A stretch of 64,000 nucleotides of DNA from Escherichia coli (lineage in GTDB: Bacteria; Pseudomonadota; Gammaproteobacteria; Enterobacterales; Enterobacteriaceae). The stretch is from the NCBI RefSeq assembly GCF_041248615.1, contig NZ_CP158426.1; one strand, given 5' to 3'. Each line of letters starts with the position of its first letter. Positions within the stretch are counted from its first letter, which is position 1. Made by a program: the position numbers and the translations under genes. Positions 1,817 through 54,510 of this stretch are shown one piece after another. The notes under the pieces are model-generated. The model was not told the DNA's origin. It did not search any database and was given only the letters and a program-made list of their open reading frames with translations.

Positions 1817-1990
1817 ATCAGGCTCCGGAGAATTGGGGCCGTCCCCGGTGAAAAGAGGCGTTTGCAGGTCGTCCTGCAAAGCTGATGGTTGAACGGATAT
1901 TTTGCCAGGTGGCAGGGGAATTTCAACTATTACCTTTGTGACTATCGCAAAAAAACAAACGGCACGACATAACTGTCGTACCGTTATTGC

Positions 1991-2137
1991 TTACTGCTGC
2001 GCTTTCGTTGCTGCGCCAGAAATCGCGTTACCGCCATCAGAAATGTCTTCACCAACGCCACGCGTGGTGTTGCAGGCAGTTAATACTGTTGAAAGCACCA
2101 GAACAGAAAAGATCGCTGCAATTGTCTTCTTCACCAT
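1991..2137 (-). CDS. ecnB: Entericidin B small lipoprotein (48 aa)
   Basis: Hand translation of minus strand: [12 protein letters not shown]...AQQ*; below the ORF-track size cutoff; lipobox present. Confidence 0.8.
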
Positions 2138-2247: not shown

Positions 2248-2373
2248 TTAGCTGGCAGCGCGGGAGATGGAATTACCGAGATGTTTAATGTCTTCACCAA
2301 AACCGCGAGCGGTGTTACAGCCCGTGAGCAGCGCACTGGCAAGCAAAACAAGAACGATAAGGCGTTTCATCAT
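2248..2373 (-). CDS. ecnA: Entericidin A small lipoprotein (41 aa)
   Basis: Hand translation of minus strand: MMKRLIVLVLL...SRAAS*; not in ORF track; adjacent to ecnB. Confidence 0.8.
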   Translation of the reverse strand: MMKRLIVLVLLASALLTGCNTARGFGEDIKHLGNSISRAAS

Positions 2374-4295: not shown

Positions 4296-4364
4296 ATGGC
4301 CATAAGCATCAAGGGTGTTAATACCGGTGTTATTCGCAAGAGCAATAATTTCATTGCACTGGCG
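4296..4364 (+). pseudogene. yjeJ: yjeJ 5' fragment (first ~23 codons), separated from the rest of the gene by IS1
   Basis: ATG at 4296 then MAISIKGVNTGVIRKSNNFIALA; the frame continues after IS1 at 5133 (…LKIKEPRNKESLFFLSVMEL…). Confidence 0.7.
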
Positions 4365-4379
4365 GGTAATGACTCCAAC

Positions 4380-4883
4380 TTATTGATAGTGTTTTATGTT
4401 CAGATAATGCCCGATGACTTTGTCATGCAGCTCCACCGATTTTGAGAACGACAGCGACTTCCGTCCCAGCCGTGCCAGGTGCTGCCTCAGATTCAGGTTA
4501 TGCCGCTCAATTCGCTGCGTATATCGCTTGCTGATTACGTGCAGCTTTCCCTTCAGGCGGGATTCATACAGCGGCCAGCCATCCGTCATCCATATCACCA
4601 CGTCAAAGGGTGACAGCAGGCTCATAAGACGCCCCAGCGTCGCCATAGTGCGTTCACCGAATACGTGCGCAACAACCGTCTTCCGGAGCCTGTCATACGC
4701 GTAAAACAGCCAGCGCTGGCGCGATTTAGCCCCGACGTATCCCCACTGTTCGTCCATTTCCGCGCAGACGATGACGTCACTGCCCGGCTGTATGCGCGAG
4801 GTTACCGACTGCGGCCTGAGTTTTTTAAATGGCGGAAAATCGTGTTGAGGCCAACGCCCATAATGCGGGCGGTTGCCCGGCAT
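4380..4883 (-). CDS. insB: IS1 transposase InsB (expressed as InsAB' fusion by -1 frameshift)
   Basis: 167-aa ORF matching IS1 InsB. Confidence 0.9.
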
Positions 4884-5077
4884 CCAACGCCATTCATGGC
4901 CATATCAATGATTTTCTGGTGCGTACCGGGTTGAGAAGCGGTGTAAGTGAACTGCAGTTGCCATGTTTTACGGCAGTGAGAGCAGAGATAGCGCTGATGT
5001 CCGGCAGTGCTTTTGCCGTTACGCACCACCCCGTCAGTAGCTGAACAGGAGGGACAGCTGATAGAAACAGAAGCCAC
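4802..5077 (-). CDS. insA: IS1 InsA repressor/transposase N-terminal protein
   Basis: 91-aa [46 protein letters not shown]… matches IS1 InsA. Confidence 0.9.
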
Positions 5078-5132
5078 TGGAGCACCTCAAAAACACCATC
5101 ATACACTAAATCAGTAAGTTGGCAGCATCACC

Positions 5133-5942
5133 GCACTGGCGCTGAAAATTAAAGAGCCTCGCAATAAAGAATCGTTGTTCTTTCTGTCTGTCATGGAACT
5201 GCGCGACCTTCTGATTGCGCTGGAAAGCCGTTTGCATCAAAAGCATAAACTGGATGCTGCTGCACGCCTTCAGTATGAGCAAGCTCGCGATAAAGTCATT
5301 AAGAAAATGGCAGAAAATATCCCAGAAATTCTGGTTGATGAGCTTAAAAATGCCGATATTAATCGTCGGGTTAACACGCTGGAACTTACCGATAATCAGG
5401 GTGAAAATCTTACCTTCGTATTAACGCTACATGACGGTAGCAAATGTGAATTAGTCATCAATGAATTGCAGATTGAAATGCTGGCGCGAGCAATCATTCA
5501 TGCAATTAATAATGCGGAAATGCGTGAACTGGCATTACGTATTACCTCACTGTTAGATTTCCTACCGTTATACGATGTTGACTGCCAGGACAATGGCAAT
5601 CTGGAATATGACACCTATTCCCAACCGGAATGGAAACATAACTTGTTCAACCATTATCTGGCGGTGCTTTACCGCTTTAAAGATGAAAGTGGCAAAGAAC
5701 AATTTAGCGGCGCAGTGGTGAAAACGCGTGAAGCAACGCCGGGTAAAGAAGTGGAGGCGATCACTCGACGAATGCTTGATTTCAGCCCACGACTGAAAAA
5801 ACTCGCGGGTGTACCATGTCAGGTCTATGTTCGCACCGTAGCGGCAAATAACGCCCAACCGCTAACCCAGGATCAATGCTTACGCGCGCTACATCACTTA
5901 CGTGTTCAATCCACCAGCAAAACTGCACCACAGGCGAAATAA
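5133..5942 (+). pseudogene. yjeJ: yjeJ 3' portion (about 266 codons) downstream of the IS1 insertion
   Basis: Frame continuous with the 4296..4364 fragment once IS1 and one copy of the 9-bp duplication are removed; ORF track shows only 5175..5942. Confidence 0.7.
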
Positions 5943-24436: not shown

Positions 24437-25954
24437 ATGTCTGAACGAGAAACACGGGGAGCCAATGAGGCTATTGATTTTAACGATGAACTGAGAAATC
24501 GCCGCGAAAAACTGGCGGCACTACGTCAGCAAGGTGTGGCGTTTCCCAATGATTTTCGCCGCGACCATACCTCTGACCAGTTGCACGAAGAGTTTGATGC
24601 GAAGGATAACCAGGAACTGGAATCCTTAAACATTGAAGTCTCGGTTGCTGGCCGAATGATGACCCGTCGTATCATGGGGAAAGCCTCCTTTGTAACGTTG
24701 CAGGATGTCGGTGGCCGTATTCAACTGTACGTCGCACGAGATAGCCTGCCAGAAGGTGTTTATAACGATCAGTTTAAAAAATGGGATCTGGGTGACATTA
24801 TCGGTGCCCGCGGTACGCTGTTTAAGACGCAAACGGGTGAGCTTTCCATTCACTGTACTGAGCTGCGCCTGCTGACTAAAGCACTACGTCCTTTACCAGA
24901 TAAATTCCATGGTCTGCAGGATCAGGAAGTCCGTTATCGTCAACGTTATCTGGACCTCATCGCTAACGATAAATCCCGTCAAACGTTTGTTGTCCGTTCA
25001 AAAATTCTGGCCGCTATCCGTCAGTTCATGGTCGCGCGCGGCTTTATGGAAGTAGAAACCCCGATGATGCAGGTAATTCCAGGTGGGGCATCTGCTCGCC
25101 CGTTTATTACCCATCATAACGCTCTGGATTTAGATATGTACCTGCGTATCGCGCCAGAGCTGTATCTGAAACGTCTGGTTGTAGGCGGTTTTGAACGGGT
25201 ATTCGAAATCAACCGTAACTTCCGTAATGAAGGTATTTCTGTTCGCCATAATCCTGAGTTCACAATGATGGAACTCTACATGGCGTATGCGGATTACCAC
25301 GATTTGATTGAACTGACAGAGTCACTGTTCCGCACCCTGGCACAAGAGGTTCTGGGTACCACTAAAGTCACTTATGGCGAGCATGTGTTTGATTTCGGCA
25401 AACCGTTTGAAAAACTCACCATGCGCGAAGCAATCAAAAAATATCGTCCAGAAACCGATATGGCCGACCTGGATAATTTTGATGCCGCTAAAGCATTAGC
25501 TGAATCTATTGGTATTACGGTAGAGAAAAGCTGGGGGCTGGGACGTATTGTCACGGAGATCTTTGATGAAGTGGCAGAAGCACATCTGATTCAGCCAACC
25601 TTTATTACGGAATATCCCGCAGAAGTGTCACCGCTGGCGCGCCGTAATGATGTTAACCCGGAAATCACCGACCGATTTGAATTCTTCATCGGTGGTCGTG
25701 AAATCGGTAATGGTTTTAGCGAATTAAACGACGCAGAAGATCAGGCTGAACGTTTCCAGGAACAGGTTAACGCTAAAGCTGCAGGTGACGACGAAGCCAT
25801 GTTCTATGACGAAGATTACGTGACTGCGCTGGAATATGGTTTGCCACCAACCGCTGGTCTGGGTATTGGTATCGACCGAATGATTATGCTGTTTACAAAC
25901 AGTCATACTATTCGCGACGTTATTCTCTTCCCGGCGATGCGCCCACAGAAATAA
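24437..25954 (+). CDS. lysU: Lysyl-tRNA synthetase, inducible isoform LysU
   Basis: ORF 24410..25954; 505-aa protein from ATG 24437 ([33 protein letters not shown]…); assigned to lysU rather than lysS by locus context next to cadA/dtpC. Confidence 0.9.
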
Positions 25955-25975
25955 TTTTCACTTTAATGAACGAAG

Positions 25976-26010
25976 CAGTCAGGCGACTGCTTCGTTCATC
26001 ATTCCGCAAA
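25976..26010. terminator. Palindromic hairpin between convergent lysU and ghoT (possible bidirectional terminator)
   Basis: atgaacgaagcagtc-aggc-gactgcttcgttcat perfect 15-bp stem; no strong T-run on either side. Confidence 0.4.
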
Positions 26011-26072
26011 TCCAGTTTTGAGGAGAGACGCTTCGTTTCACGATAACCAGCGGGTCCACTCAACTACAGCTC

Positions 26073-26246
26073 CTAAAAGAGAGAAAAAAGTAATGCCACA
26101 GGCAGACTCATTGGCCAGGTTATTCCTACCAGGAATGCACTAAGTAAACGAATATGTGTTTTCTCATGTGAGATAAACCAGATAATGACAAAGGATATGT
26201 TCACACCAATCACATAAAAAATTAATATTTTAGAGAATAGTGCCAT
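26073..26246 (-). CDS. ghoT: Type V toxin GhoT (57-aa membrane-lytic peptide)
   Basis: Hand translation of minus strand from ATG at 26246: MALFSKILIFYVIGVNISFVIIWFISHEKTHIRLLSAFLVGITWPMSLPVALLFSLF*; absent from the ORF track. Confidence 0.85.
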   Translation of the reverse strand: MALFSKILIFYVIGVNISFVIIWFISHEKTHIRLLSAFLVGITWPMSLPVALLFSLF

Positions 26247-26273
26247 TTTTTATGTTCTTCTTATCCTTCCTGG

Positions 26274-26570
26274 CTACTTGTAAAACTGACGGAAATAATC
26301 ATCAACTGTCATAATGTTGAGGTCAAAGTCAATATCCGGTAAGTCTAAGCATTTAAGCCTGATTAAATCTTCGATTTCACTTGCGGCTAACGATGTCGTT
26401 ATTGCGAAGGAGTTTTCATTCAATTGTCGTGGTATCCCATATTCATCAGCCACGATAGAGGAGAAATTCATATCATACATCAATGATCTTAACCTTAAGA
26501 ACACTGAGGAATAAGATGATGGATAATCAAAAGAAACAACATAAGTATTGAACTTGTTTTTACCTTCCAT
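26274..26570 (-). CDS. ghoS: Type V antitoxin GhoS (endoribonuclease that cleaves ghoT mRNA)
   Basis: 98-aa ORF MEGKNKFNTYVVSFDYPSSYSSVFLRLRSLMYD… immediately upstream of ghoT on the same strand. Confidence 0.88.
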   Translation of the reverse strand: MEGKNKFNTYVVSFDYPSSYSSVFLRLRSLMYDMNFSSIVADEYGIPRQLNENSFAITTSLAASEIEDLIRLKCLDLPDIDFDLNIMTVDDYFRQFYK

Positions 26571-26798
26571 AATATGACTCCTATCAATATTGAACGCTCT
26601 GGGGACGCAAAACTTATTAACCCCGATCGATGATTTTCATATAGGAGATATTCTTTTTTTTTTGCTCAGTAAAGGGGATGACTTGGGACAAAAAAACGCT
26701 CTCTCTGACCATTCTTTGTGCATCCCCCTACCCTTCAGATACTCTCCTGCATCACACCGCGGAGAGCAAGAAAAATATCGTGACTCTGTACTCTCCCA

Positions 26799-27071
26799 TC
26801 AACTTCGAATATCATCATACTCACGCGTTTTATCAAATTCGTGTTTCGCAAATGGGCATAGTGGGATAATTTTTCGTTTTTCCCGACGCATTTTTTCCAC
26901 GACTTTCGCAACCAGCTGTTTACCAATCCCTTGCCCTTTCAGGCTTTCATCGACATCGGTATGTTCGATAATCGCTAAATTCTCTCCGGTCGGCACAAAG
27001 ACAATTTCAGCGATTTGCTTGCCCTGTTCGTCATTAATGTAAAATTTATTGTGGCCTTCGCGTATTTCCAT
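26799..27071 (-). CDS. yjdJ: Small GNAT-like protein YjdJ
   Basis: 90-aa [57 protein letters not shown]…. Confidence 0.8.
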
Positions 27072-27332: not shown

Positions 27333-28597
<1,265 letters not shown>

Positions 28598-28754
28598 GAT
28601 TATCGCTATAAGCATAGCCCCGGAATCTTCATACAGCACTGGCAGTTTCCGTTGCCAGAGTCTCTTCCCCTATATAGCCAATCATTCTTACTCCCTTTGA
28701 ATTACCCGCCTCATCAGAGATAATGCTTAAGAAATTTGTCACACAAGGAAGCTG

Positions 28755-35627: not shown

Positions 35628-37140
<1,513 letters not shown>

Positions 37141-47135: not shown

Positions 47136-48227
47136 ATGCGTTTTCTGCGCCGACCAATATCGCTGCGCCAACGGCTGATATTGACCATCGGGGCCATTTT
47201 GTTGGTGTTTGAGCTGATCAGCGTCTTCTGGCTATGGCATGAAAGTACCGAGCAGATTCAGCTGTTTGAGCAGGCGCTACGCGACAATCGCAACAACGAT
47301 CGCCACATCATGCGTGAGATCCGCGAGGCGGTCGCCAGCCTGATCGTCCCCGGCGTCTTTATGGTCAGCCTGACTCTATTTATCTGCTATCAGGCGGTAC
47401 GCCGCATCACCCGGCCGCTGGCGGAGCTGCAAAAAGAGCTGGAAGCGCGCACCGCCGACAACTTAACGCCTATTGCCATTCACAGCGCCACCCTCGAAAT
47501 CGAAGCGGTGGTTTCGGCGTTGAACGATCTGGTCAGTCGCCTGACCAGCACGCTGGATAACGAAAGGTTGTTTACTGCTGACGTCGCGCACGAACTGCGA
47601 ACGCCACTGGCGGGGGTGCGTTTGCATCTGGAACTGCTGGCGAAAACGCATCACATTGATGTAGCACCGTTAGTGGCACGGCTTGATCAGATGATGGAGA
47701 GCGTCTCCCAGCTGCTGCAACTGGCGCGTGCCGGACAGTCATTTTCTTCCGGGAATTATCAACATGTAAAACTGCTGGAAGATGTCATTCTCCCCTCGTA
47801 TGACGAACTCAGTACCATGCTCGACCAGCGACAGCAAACCCTGCTATTGCCAGAGAGCGCCGCCGACATCACCGTTCAGGGTGATGCAACCCTGCTGCGG
47901 ATGTTATTGCGAAACCTGGTAGAAAACGCCCATCGTTACAGCCCGCAAGGCAGCAACATTATGATTAAGCTGCAAGAAGATGGCGGAGCGGTCATGGCCG
48001 TTGAAGATGAAGGACCGGGTATTGATGAGAGTAAATGCGGGGAGTTGAGTAAAGCGTTTGTACGTATGGACAGCCGTTATGGCGGGATTGGTCTGGGGTT
48101 AAGTATTGTCAGCCGCATTACACAGTTGCATCACGGGCAGTTTTTCCTGCAAAACCGGCAAGAGACTTCCGGCACGCGGGCCTGGGTACGGCTGAAGAAA
48201 GATCAGTACGTGGTAAACCAGATATAA
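47136..48227 (+). CDS. basS: Sensor histidine kinase BasS (PmrB)
   Basis: ORF 47127..48227 (track starts at TTG); ATG at 47136 gives a 363-aa kinase (MRFLRRPISLRQRLILTIGAILLVFELISV…). Confidence 0.9.
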   Translation: MRFLRRPISLRQRLILTIGAILLVFELISVFWLWHESTEQIQLFEQALRDNRNNDRHIMREIREAVASLIVPGVFMVSLTLFICYQAVRRITRPLAELQKELEARTADNLTPIAIHSATLEIEAVVSALNDLVSRLTSTLDNERLFTADVAHELRTPLAGVRLHLELLAKTHHIDVAPLVARLDQMMESVSQLLQLARAGQSFSSGNYQHVKLLEDVILPSYDELSTMLDQRQQTLLLPESAADITVQGDATLLRMLLRNLVENAHRYSPQGSNIMIKLQEDGGAVMAVEDEGPGIDESKCGELSKAFVRMDSRYGGIGLGLSIVSRITQLHHGQFFLQNRQETSGTRAWVRLKKDQYVVNQI

Positions 48228-48292
48228 AGAAAGCTGCTGACCACCAGCACGCTGAACACGGTAGTTAAACTTTCATAAACACGGTTTTTCAT
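48203..48292 (-). CDS. pmrR: Small membrane protein PmrR (29 aa), antisense-overlapping the 3' end of basS
   Basis: Hand translation of minus strand from ATG 48292: MKNRVYESLTTVFSVLVVSSFLYIWFTTY*; preceded by GGAGGAGAG and a PmrA box; not in ORF track. Confidence 0.75.
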   Translation of the reverse strand: MKNRVYESLTTVFSVLVVSSFLYIWFTTY

Positions 48293-48336
48293 TGCACTCT
48301 CCTCCGTTAACCTGGAGGAGAGTATGCGCGTCAGAG

Positions 48337-48353
48337 ATTAAGTGAACCTTAAG
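48337..48353 (-). promoter_or_regulatory. PmrA (BasR) box CTTAAG-N5-CTTAAT upstream of pmrR
   Basis: Reverse complement of 48337-48353 reads cttaag gttca cttaat, the same motif as upstream of eptA; 45-60 bp upstream of pmrR ATG. Confidence 0.6.
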
Positions 48354-48400
48354 ACTTCAATTGGCCTGATAAGACAGCGTCTCAGGCCATCCGTTTCAGC

Positions 48401-54020: not shown

Positions 54021-54510
<490 letters not shown>

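What the first reader, a model, noticed from the sequence alone, without database searches (positions are those of the whole stretch)
26073..26570. ghoS-ghoT type V toxin-antitoxin pair, with the 57-aa toxin invisible to the ORF track
Immediately downstream of the 98-aa GhoS ORF on the minus strand, a 57-codon ORF encodes MALFSKILIFYVIGVNISFVIIWFISHEKTHIRLLSAFLVGITWPMSLPVALLFSLF, a two-helix hydrophobic peptide that matches GhoT. The system is already described in E. coli, so it is not novel, but it is the only toxin-antitoxin module in the window and is easily missed by size-filtered gene calling. It lies three genes from the IS3-family insertion.
Basis: partly seen in the sequence, partly recalled or inferred. 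Interest (0 to 1): 0.35.

Follow-up and report, generated by a model that had tools for sequence, protein, structure and literature searches.

The report
Known E. coli GhoS–GhoT toxin–antitoxin operon
This is the ordinary, already annotated ghoS–ghoT toxin–antitoxin gene pair found in about 98% of E. coli genomes, here with proteins identical to the experimentally studied K-12 versions, so it is real but not new.

Summary
A 57-codon ORF (26073–26246, minus strand) lies 27 nt downstream of a 98-codon ORF (26274–26570), with no frameshift or premature stop. Both proteins are 100% identical to E. coli K-12 GhoT (b4559) and GhoS (b4128). GhoS is 100% identical to the solved structure 2LLZ. Pfam matches are strong: PF10753 at 90 bits and PF11080 at 139 bits. 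The window is base-for-base identical to E. coli NRZ14408 (NZ_LT599825.1), and RefSeq already annotates both genes at these coordinates. The pair occurs in 5318 of 5426 complete E. coli genomes at ≥95% identity, in the same yjdJ–ghoST–lysU context.

Features described in the literature are present. ghoS has three 5'-GCU (MqsR) sites and ghoT has none. GhoS R28 and GhoT F38 are there, as are two hydrophobic helices. All five nucleotide differences from K-12 are synonymous.

Two side claims need correction. It is not the only toxin–antitoxin module in the window, because ecnB/ecnA sits at 1991–2373. Standard annotation (PGAP) does not miss ghoT; only a ≥60-aa ORF filter hides it.

The "IS3-family insertion" is ISEc31 (27340–28597), with two genes between it and ghoS. 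Verdict: already known, low interest.

The parts
26274..26570 (-). ghoS (yjdK): 98-aa antitoxin, a sequence-specific endoribonuclease with a ferredoxin-like, Cas2-like fold. Arg28 is present.
   Evidence: ORF. Pfam PF11080, 138.8 bits. 100% identical to PDB 2LLZ chain A and to K-12 b4128. RefSeq WP_000398619.1 at these coordinates. R28 checked; its role is taken from PMC4010927.
26247..26273 (-). 27-nt ghoS-ghoT spacer carrying the ghoT ribosome-binding site (AGGAAGGA, about 15 nt before the ATG). It contains no GCU site.
   Evidence: Sequence read. The short spacer on the same strand fits one bicistronic mRNA; PMC5408214 refers to a 'ghoS-ghoT mRNA'.
26073..26246 (-). ghoT (yjdO): 57-aa hydrophobic two-helix inner-membrane toxin. 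Phe38 is present, and the coding sequence has no 5'-GCU site.
   Evidence: Translation. Pfam PF10753, 90.4 bits. 100% identical to K-12 b4559. RefSeq WP_001173343.1. GRAVY +1.5, with two hydrophobic segments separated by HEKTHIR, plus F38 and the GCU count.
26348..26450 (-). The three 5'-GCU sites (preferred MqsR cleavage sites) inside ghoS. Their first bases are at 26450, 26358 and 26350 on the minus strand.
   Evidence: Counted. This matches the literature statement that the ghoS coding sequence contains three 5'-GCU sites and ghoT none (PMC4803016).
25964..26001 (.). A 16-17 bp perfect hairpin (loop GCCU) in the 118-nt gap between the convergent ghoT and lysU genes. It is probably a shared transcript-end or stabilising structure, and it has no canonical T-tract.
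   Evidence: RNA fold and sequence. The consensus terminator scan found nothing here, so a terminator role is inferred, not shown.
26571..26798 (-). The yjdJ-ghoS intergenic region, presumed to hold the ghoST promoter and 5' UTR. It includes the ghoS RBS (TAGGAG, 6 nt before the ATG) and an A10 tract (26654-26663) that is A8 in K-12.
   Evidence: Sequence. The only sigma-70-like match on this strand lies at 26836-26808, inside the 3' end of yjdJ, and is a weak 9/12 match. The promoter position is therefore not established.

Best explanation
The region is the chromosomal ghoS-ghoT operon of E. coli, the founding type V toxin-antitoxin system, in an intact state whose proteins are identical to K-12. 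Shown here: two same-strand ORFs 27 nt apart, antitoxin first, each with its own RBS; both proteins identical to the reference proteins; the canonical genomic position. Taken from the literature on those identical K-12 proteins: GhoT is a 57-aa two-helix peptide that inserts into the inner membrane. When over-produced it damages the membrane, lowers ATP, and gives 'ghost' or dormant cells. GhoS does not bind GhoT. It is a stable endoribonuclease with a Cas2-like ferredoxin fold and a key residue at R28. It cleaves ghoT mRNA in A/U-rich regions, so the toxin is not translated. The proposed trigger is the type II toxin MqsR, a GCU-specific RNase, which cuts the ghoS part of the bicistronic mRNA (three GCU sites) and spares ghoT (none), so that GhoT gets made. 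Inferred for this strain: the same mechanism applies, because the proteins are identical and the mRNA differs from K-12 at only five synonymous positions.
For: ORFs and translation are. Pfam PF10753 scores 90.4 bits and PF11080 scores 138.8 bits, against cut-offs of 22.1 and 21. GhoS is 100% identical to PDB 2LLZ 'yjdK' over 98/98 residues. GhoS and GhoT are 100% identical to K-12 b4128 and b4559, and the 5 coding differences are all synonymous. RefSeq annotates ghoS and ghoT at 26274-26570 and 26073-26246 in NZ_LT599825.1, which is identical to the window with 0 mismatches in 64,000 bases. Gene order is the same as in K-12 and in another isolate. The pair is present in 5318/5426 complete E. 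coli genomes, all at >=95% identity, with 5272 covering >=80% of it. GCU sites number 3 in ghoS and 0 in the spacer and ghoT; R28 and F38 are present; GhoT has GRAVY +1.5 and two hydrophobic helices; the ghoT mRNA is 65.5% A+U. Mechanism comes from PMC4010927, PMC4344625, PMC3905216, PMC5408214, PMC4803016, PMC3997798 and PMC3827094.
Against: Nothing argues against the identification. The caveats concern mechanism and role. (1) The two primary papers (PMC3514572, PMC3620836) were not available, so the mechanism is cited from secondary open-access sources. (2) The lack of GCU in a 174-nt, 34.5% GC gene is not statistically striking on its own: P(0) is about 0.10 in mononucleotide shuffles. (3) The physiological relevance of the MqsR cascade is disputed. 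[quoted passage not shown] (4) Whether this strain carries mqsRA was not checked, as it lies outside the window. (5) No promoter or canonical terminator could be pinned down. (6) NCBIfam and PADLOC have no model that hits either protein.
Confidence: 0.97

Rival explanations
1. The pair is the genuine ghoST locus but does nothing under natural conditions. In this reading it is a near-neutral or selfish low-GC islet, and its 'toxin-antitoxin' behaviour appears only on artificial over-expression. GhoS's real job, if it has one, would be to modulate other mRNAs, such as the roughly 20 purine/pyrimidine transcripts reported.
For: [quoted passage not shown] The phenotypes cited for GhoT and OrtT come from plasmid over-production (PMC4344625). 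GhoS over-production lowered 20 other transcripts (PMC4010927; PMC3997798). The locus is 35% GC against about 47-55% in the flanks, which suggests foreign origin. The absence of GCU from ghoT is compatible with chance, P about 0.1.
Against: The locus is kept intact in about 97-98% of 5426 genomes at >=95% identity. All differences from K-12 are synonymous, while the adjacent intergenic DNA diverges about four times faster. That pattern indicates purifying selection on both proteins. A toxin gene with no role would be expected to decay often.
Confidence: 0.25
2. The 57-codon ORF is a GhoT/OrtT-family paralogue that behaves as an orphan toxin like OrtT and is not controlled by the neighbouring GhoS.
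For: The Pfam family PF10753 covers both GhoT and OrtT. OrtT is 57 aa, 63% identical to GhoT, and GhoS does not neutralise it (PMC4344625). GhoT/OrtT-family genes also occur elsewhere, for example on 78 Pantoea plasmid records.
Against: The peptide is 100% identical to GhoT, not 63%. It lies 27 nt downstream of ghoS at the canonical locus. It lacks GCU sites as ghoT does, whereas ortT has two (PMC4344625).
Confidence: 0.01
3. The 57-codon ORF is a chance open frame or a pseudogene remnant in AT-rich DNA.
For: ORFs of 30-66 aa are common on both strands of this AT-rich stretch, so length alone is not evidence of a gene.
Against: Pfam gives E=8.9e-26 over the full length. The protein is 100% identical to an experimentally studied one. 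It has an RBS at the proper distance. It is annotated in every hit listed. There is no frameshift or internal stop.
Confidence: 0.01

Closest known systems
GhoT/GhoS (YjdO/YjdK) type V toxin-antitoxin system of E. coli K-12 (b4559/b4128; GhoS structure PDB 2LLZ)
   Same: Everything tested is the same. Both proteins are 100% identical. Gene order, the 27-nt spacer, the flanking genes (yjdJ upstream, convergent lysU downstream), three GCU sites in ghoS with none in ghoT, R28 and F38 all match.
   Different: There are five synonymous substitutions in the coding DNA (26493, 26355, 26328, 26298, 26127). The upstream intergenic region has nine substitutions and an A10 tract where K-12 has A8. One base differs at the foot of the downstream hairpin. 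This strain also has an ISEc31 element 770 nt upstream of ghoS, between yjdI and dcuS.
OrtT (YdcX), orphan GhoT-like toxin of E. coli
   Same: Same Pfam family (PF10753), same length (57 aa), two predicted transmembrane helices, a conserved Phe38, and a membrane-damaging phenotype (PMC4344625).
   Different: OrtT is 63% identical to GhoT and has no adjacent antitoxin. GhoS does not neutralise it, and its mRNA has two GCU sites. The window's peptide is GhoT itself, not OrtT.
Type I membrane toxins (Hok, TisB and similar)
   Same: They are small hydrophobic inner-membrane peptides that dissipate membrane potential and ATP, and toxin synthesis is controlled at the mRNA level (PMC3827094).
   Different: In type I systems the antitoxin is an antisense RNA. 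Here the antitoxin is a protein endoribonuclease, and Rfam finds no RNA family over ghoST.
Cas2 (CRISPR-associated endoribonuclease fold)
   Same: GhoS is reported as a structural homologue of Cas2, with a ferredoxin-like fold and five conserved catalytic residues (PMC4010927; PMC3997798).
   Different: There is no CRISPR context here. Pfam does not place GhoS in a Cas2 family; only PF11080 hits. The fold similarity was not re-tested here.
EcnB/EcnA entericidin locus (also in this window, 1991-2373)
   Same: It is a chromosomal pair of tiny genes (48 and 41 aa) described as a linked toxin-antidote module, and it too falls below a 60-aa ORF filter.
   Different: Both products are lipoproteins of one family (PF08085). 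The mechanism differs from the RNase-on-toxin-mRNA mechanism of type V.

Membership tests
GhoT/GhoS type V toxin-antitoxin system | The antitoxin belongs to the GhoS endoribonuclease family (PF11080; YjdK fold, PDB 2LLZ). | tested here: met
   PF11080 scores 138.8 bits against a cut-off of 21. The protein is 98/98 identical to 2LLZ_A and identical to K-12 b4128.
GhoT/GhoS type V toxin-antitoxin system | The toxin belongs to the GhoT/OrtT family (PF10753): about 57 aa, with two hydrophobic transmembrane helices. | tested here: met
   PF10753 scores 90.4 bits against a cut-off of 22.1. The protein is identical to K-12 b4559. GRAVY is +1.5, with two hydrophobic segments around a short polar loop, HEKTHIR.
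GhoT/GhoS type V toxin-antitoxin system | The two genes are adjacent on the same strand, antitoxin first, and able to form one bicistronic mRNA. | tested here: met
   ghoS is at 26570-26274, followed by a 27-nt spacer and ghoT at 26246-26073, all on the minus strand. Co-transcription itself was not measured here; PMC5408214 refers to a ghoS-ghoT mRNA.
GhoT/GhoS type V toxin-antitoxin system | The functionally important residues are present: GhoS Arg28 (RNase activity) and GhoT Phe38 (toxicity). | tested here: met
   R28 and F38 are both present. Their roles are taken from PMC4010927 and PMC4344625.
GhoT/GhoS type V toxin-antitoxin system | MqsR sites are distributed asymmetrically: three 5'-GCU sites in ghoS and none in ghoT. 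| tested here: met
   ghoS has 3 GCU sites (26450, 26358, 26350). The spacer and ghoT have 0. This matches PMC4803016. The absence in ghoT has only P about 0.10 by shuffle, so it is consistent but not decisive.
GhoT/GhoS type V toxin-antitoxin system | GhoS cleaves ghoT mRNA (the step that defines type V) and does not bind the GhoT protein. | not testable with these tools
   This needs biochemistry. A review describes the recognition sequence only as A/U-rich and 'rather undefined' (PMC3997798), so a motif scan cannot discriminate. The ghoT mRNA here is 65.5% A+U and differs from K-12 at one synonymous base.
GhoT/GhoS type V toxin-antitoxin system | The pair sits at the canonical chromosomal locus (yjdI-yjdJ-ghoS-ghoT, convergent with lysU). 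| tested here: met
   The order matches K-12, NZ_OW967178 and the source record. The lysyl-tRNA synthetase gene is labelled lysS by PGAP and lysU in K-12.
GhoT/GhoS type V toxin-antitoxin system | The upstream controller MqsR/MqsA is present in the same genome. | not tested
   mqsRA lies outside the 64-kb window, and the source genome was not searched for it.
Type I toxin-antitoxin (RNA antitoxin) | A cis- or trans-encoded antisense RNA antitoxin overlaps or lies next to the toxin gene. | tested here: not met
   No Rfam family hits 25900-26850 at E<=1 or at gathering score. The sigma-70-like sites on the opposite strand are weak 9/12 matches, and the count of 5 is near the shuffle mean of 2.7 +/- 1.6. 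A novel antisense RNA cannot be excluded by these scans.

The most novel reading that the evidence does not exclude
The only strain-specific feature nearby is the ISEc31 insertion 26 nt upstream of the yjdI start codon, which occupies this site in 1 of 5426 genomes. It may cut yjdI-yjdJ off from their native promoter. If read-through from yjdIJ normally contributes to ghoST transcription, or if the IS end carries an outward promoter, the insertion could change the ghoS:ghoT expression balance in this isolate. The A10-versus-A8 tract upstream of ghoS could likewise alter promoter spacing.
Probability: 0.05. Interest if true: 0.2.

Novelty: already known. Interest (0 to 1): 0.05.

Why it matters
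It matters little beyond annotation hygiene. The finding shows that a 60-aa ORF cut-off hides real genes. In this window the hidden genes include ghoT (57 aa), ecnB (48 aa), ecnA (41 aa) and pmrR (29 aa). The ghoST system is biologically interesting as the founding type V TA system, in which a protein antitoxin destroys the toxin's mRNA. This copy adds nothing to that story: its proteins are identical to K-12, it is part of the core genome, and it is already annotated in RefSeq.

Tried and rejected
(1) I tried to read the two primary papers (PMID 22941047 / PMC3514572 and PMC3620836) to obtain mapped GhoS cleavage sites. Neither is held.

(2) NCBIfam and PADLOC scans of GhoT and GhoS returned nothing. 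This reflects library coverage and does not count against identity.

(3) The consensus promoter/terminator scan gave no convincing ghoST promoter and no canonical terminator. The hairpin at 25964-26001 was found by folding instead.

(4) I considered and rejected three alternative readings: an OrtT-type orphan toxin, a chance ORF, and a type I (RNA antitoxin) system (see rivals and membership test).

(5) I checked whether the locus is plasmid-borne or mobile. The 100%-identical 'plasmid' hits are 0.09-4.9 Mb non-mobilizable records, several of chromosome size. They give no evidence of mobility.

Full report
**1. Observation**

Reading the minus strand of 25800-26900, listing ORFs down to 30 aa and translating 26246→26073 all confirm the finding. 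A 57-codon ORF starts with ATG and ends with a single stop. It encodes MALFSKILIFYVIGVNISFVIIWFISHEKTHIRLLSAFLVGITWPMSLPVALLFSLF. It lies 27 nt downstream of a 98-codon ORF at 26274-26570 on the same strand.

The spacer, CCAGGAAGGATAAGAAGAACATAAAAA, carries an AGGA-type ribosome-binding site. ghoS has TAGGAG 6 nt before its ATG.

Length alone is not significant, because the same AT-rich stretch holds many 30-66 aa ORFs on both strands. The case for a real gene rests on homology and conservation.

**2. Identity**

- Pfam assigns the 57-aa peptide to PF10753 (Toxin_GhoT_OrtT): 90.4 bits against a cut-off of 22.1, covering the full profile.
- Pfam assigns the 98-aa protein to PF11080 (GhoS): 138.8 bits against a cut-off of 21.
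- The 98-aa protein is 98/98 identical to PDB 2LLZ chain A, 'Uncharacterized protein yjdK'.
- Direct comparison with the MG1655 reference locus shows both proteins are 100% identical to b4128 (GhoS) and b4559 (GhoT).
- The 471 coding bases differ from K-12 at five positions, all synonymous. The 228-nt upstream intergenic region carries nine substitutions and a 2-nt indel. That pattern is what purifying selection on both proteins would produce.

The whole 64-kb window is identical, with 0 mismatches, to NZ_LT599825.1 positions 4835546-4899545 (E. coli isolate NRZ14408). In that RefSeq record ghoT and ghoS are already annotated at exactly these coordinates as 'type V toxin-antitoxin system toxin GhoT' and 'endoribonuclease antitoxin GhoS'.

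**3. Context and population**

The gene order is dcuS, (IS), yjdI, yjdJ, ghoS, ghoT, then convergent lysU (labelled lysS by PGAP), dtpC and cadABC. This is the K-12 order.

The 498-nt ghoST segment is found in 5318 of 5426 complete E. coli genomes, always at ≥95% identity. In 5272 of them at least 80% of the segment is covered. It is a core-genome locus.

Its GC content is about 35%, against about 47-55% in the flanks, which suggests an old foreign acquisition.

Plasmid-database hits at 100% identity are 0.09-4.9 Mb non-mobilizable records. More distant GhoT/OrtT homologues (56-67% identity) occur on Pantoea, Salmonella and other plasmid records.

**4. Features tied to mechanism**

The literature gives several specific features of the system.

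- GhoT is a small hydrophobic inner-membrane peptide with two predicted transmembrane helices. An F38R change abolishes its toxicity (PMC4344625; PMC3827094).
- GhoS is a sequence-specific endoribonuclease, structurally similar to Cas2, and R28 is its most important residue (PMC4010927).
- GhoS cleaves ghoT mRNA in A/U-rich regions, with a rather undefined recognition sequence, and is not labile under stress (PMC3997798).
- MqsR, a GCU-specific RNase, preferentially cuts the ghoS part of the ghoS-ghoT mRNA. That part contains three 5'-GCU sites, while ghoT has none (PMC4803016; PMC5408214; PMC3905216).

On this allele I find R28 in GhoS and F38 in GhoT. GhoT has GRAVY +1.5, with two hydrophobic segments flanking HEKTHIR. 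ghoS has exactly three GCU sites (26450, 26358, 26350), and the spacer and ghoT have none.

The GCU asymmetry matches the published description but is weak statistically. About 10% of shuffles of ghoT also lack GCU.

What can be said is that the ghoT mRNA is 65.5% A+U and differs from K-12 at a single synonymous base (26127). Any site mapped in K-12 is therefore retained, with at most that one exception.

**5. Transcript ends**

A 16-17 bp perfect hairpin (25964-26001, loop GCCU) sits in the 118-nt gap between the convergent ghoT and lysU genes. It lacks a T-tract, and the consensus scan reports no terminator. A role as a shared terminator or stabiliser is therefore inferred.

No convincing σ70 promoter was located for ghoST. 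The only match on this strand is a weak 9/12 match and lies inside the 3' end of yjdJ. Rfam finds no RNA family over the locus.

**6. Rivals**

The orphan-toxin (OrtT-like), chance-ORF and type I readings are excluded by identity, synteny and the absence of an RNA antitoxin signal.

The only serious open question is physiological, not about identification. The role of chromosomal TA systems, and of the MqsRA trigger in particular, is disputed (PMC6918082). The phenotypes cited come largely from over-expression. High conservation and synonymous-only divergence argue that the proteins are under selection, but they do not say what for.

**7.

(a) 'Only TA module in the window' is wrong. ecnB (1991-2137) and ecnA (2248-2373) are annotated as lipoprotein toxin and antitoxin. 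Both match PF08085. [quoted passage not shown]

(b) ghoT is missed only by a size filter. PGAP annotates it in every hit listed.

(c) The 'IS3-family insertion' is ISEc31:
- It spans 27340-28597 (1258 bp), with TG…CA ends and 26-nt imperfect inverted repeats.
- It has a 3-bp GAT target duplication.
- It carries orfA/orfB with a programmed frameshift.
- It lies 26 nt upstream of the yjdI ATG and 157 nt upstream of the dcuS ATG.
- Two genes, yjdJ and yjdI, lie between it and ghoS.
- This site is occupied in only 1 of 5426 genomes, which is the source strain.

**8. Verdict**

This is a real, intact gene pair that is already known and already annotated, and it is not novel. Interest is low (0.05). 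The most novel reading not excluded is that the unique ISEc31 insertion, or the A10/A8 tract upstream, alters ghoST expression in this isolate. I put that at about 5% probability, and it would be of modest interest even if true.

Noticed in passing
window 1991-2137 (-) and 2248-2373 (-): These are ecnB (48 aa) and ecnA (41 aa), the entericidin lipoprotein toxin/antidote pair. It is a second annotated toxin-antitoxin module in the window, and it too falls below a 60-aa ORF filter. Both proteins match Pfam PF08085.
   Followed up: partly
window 27340-28597 (+): An ISEc31 (IS3-family) element of 1258 bp with TG…CA ends and a 3-bp GAT target duplication (27337-27339 and 28598-28600). It is inserted 26 nt upstream of the yjdI start codon and 157 nt upstream of dcuS. 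Among 5426 complete E. coli genomes only the source strain (NRZ14408) has it at this site. It probably separates yjdI-yjdJ from their native promoter.
   Followed up: partly
window 27408-27530 (+): A full-length, high-scoring Rfam hit to the sRNA family isrC (RF01387, 150 bits). It lies in sense orientation inside the ISEc31 orfA coding region (27376-27723, HTH_Tnp_1). The Rfam family therefore appears to correspond to the 5' part of an IS3-family transposase gene rather than an independent sRNA locus here.
   Followed up: partly
window 4296-5942: An IS1B element (4380-5077, minus strand) splits yjeJ into a short 5' remnant (4296-4364) and a longer ORF (5127-5942).
   Followed up: no
window 35628-37038 (-): melB (melibiose:sodium transporter) is frameshifted: it appears as two ORFs, 35628-36341 and 36364-37062. 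RefSeq annotates it as a pseudogene. The same defect is annotated in the closely related isolate NZ_OW967178.
   Followed up: no
window 54025-54502 (+): Five tandem naRNA4 (CssrE / REP325-type) units with an exact 100-nt period lie between yjdM and yjdN (Rfam RF02564, 90-111 bits each).
   Followed up: no
window 48196-48361 (-): An Rfam STnc630 hit (183 bits) overlaps the 29-aa small-protein gene pmrR (48203-48292). pmrR itself overlaps the 3' end of pmrB/basS on the opposite strand. So an 'sRNA' family coincides with a small-protein mRNA.
   Followed up: no
window 1834-1880 (-): A guanidine-II (mini-ykkC) riboswitch lies just upstream of sugE/gdx (1499-1816), as expected for this SMR guanidinium exporter.
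   Followed up: no
window 26654-26663 (-): A homopolymer A10 tract 84-93 nt upstream of the ghoS ATG is A8 in K-12 MG1655. It may fall in the promoter or 5'-UTR region. Its effect is unknown.
   Followed up: no
window 26050-26650: The ghoST segment is a low-GC islet (about 35% GC) between flanks of about 47-55% GC. That fits an ancient horizontal acquisition, even though the locus is now core in E. coli.
   Followed up: partly
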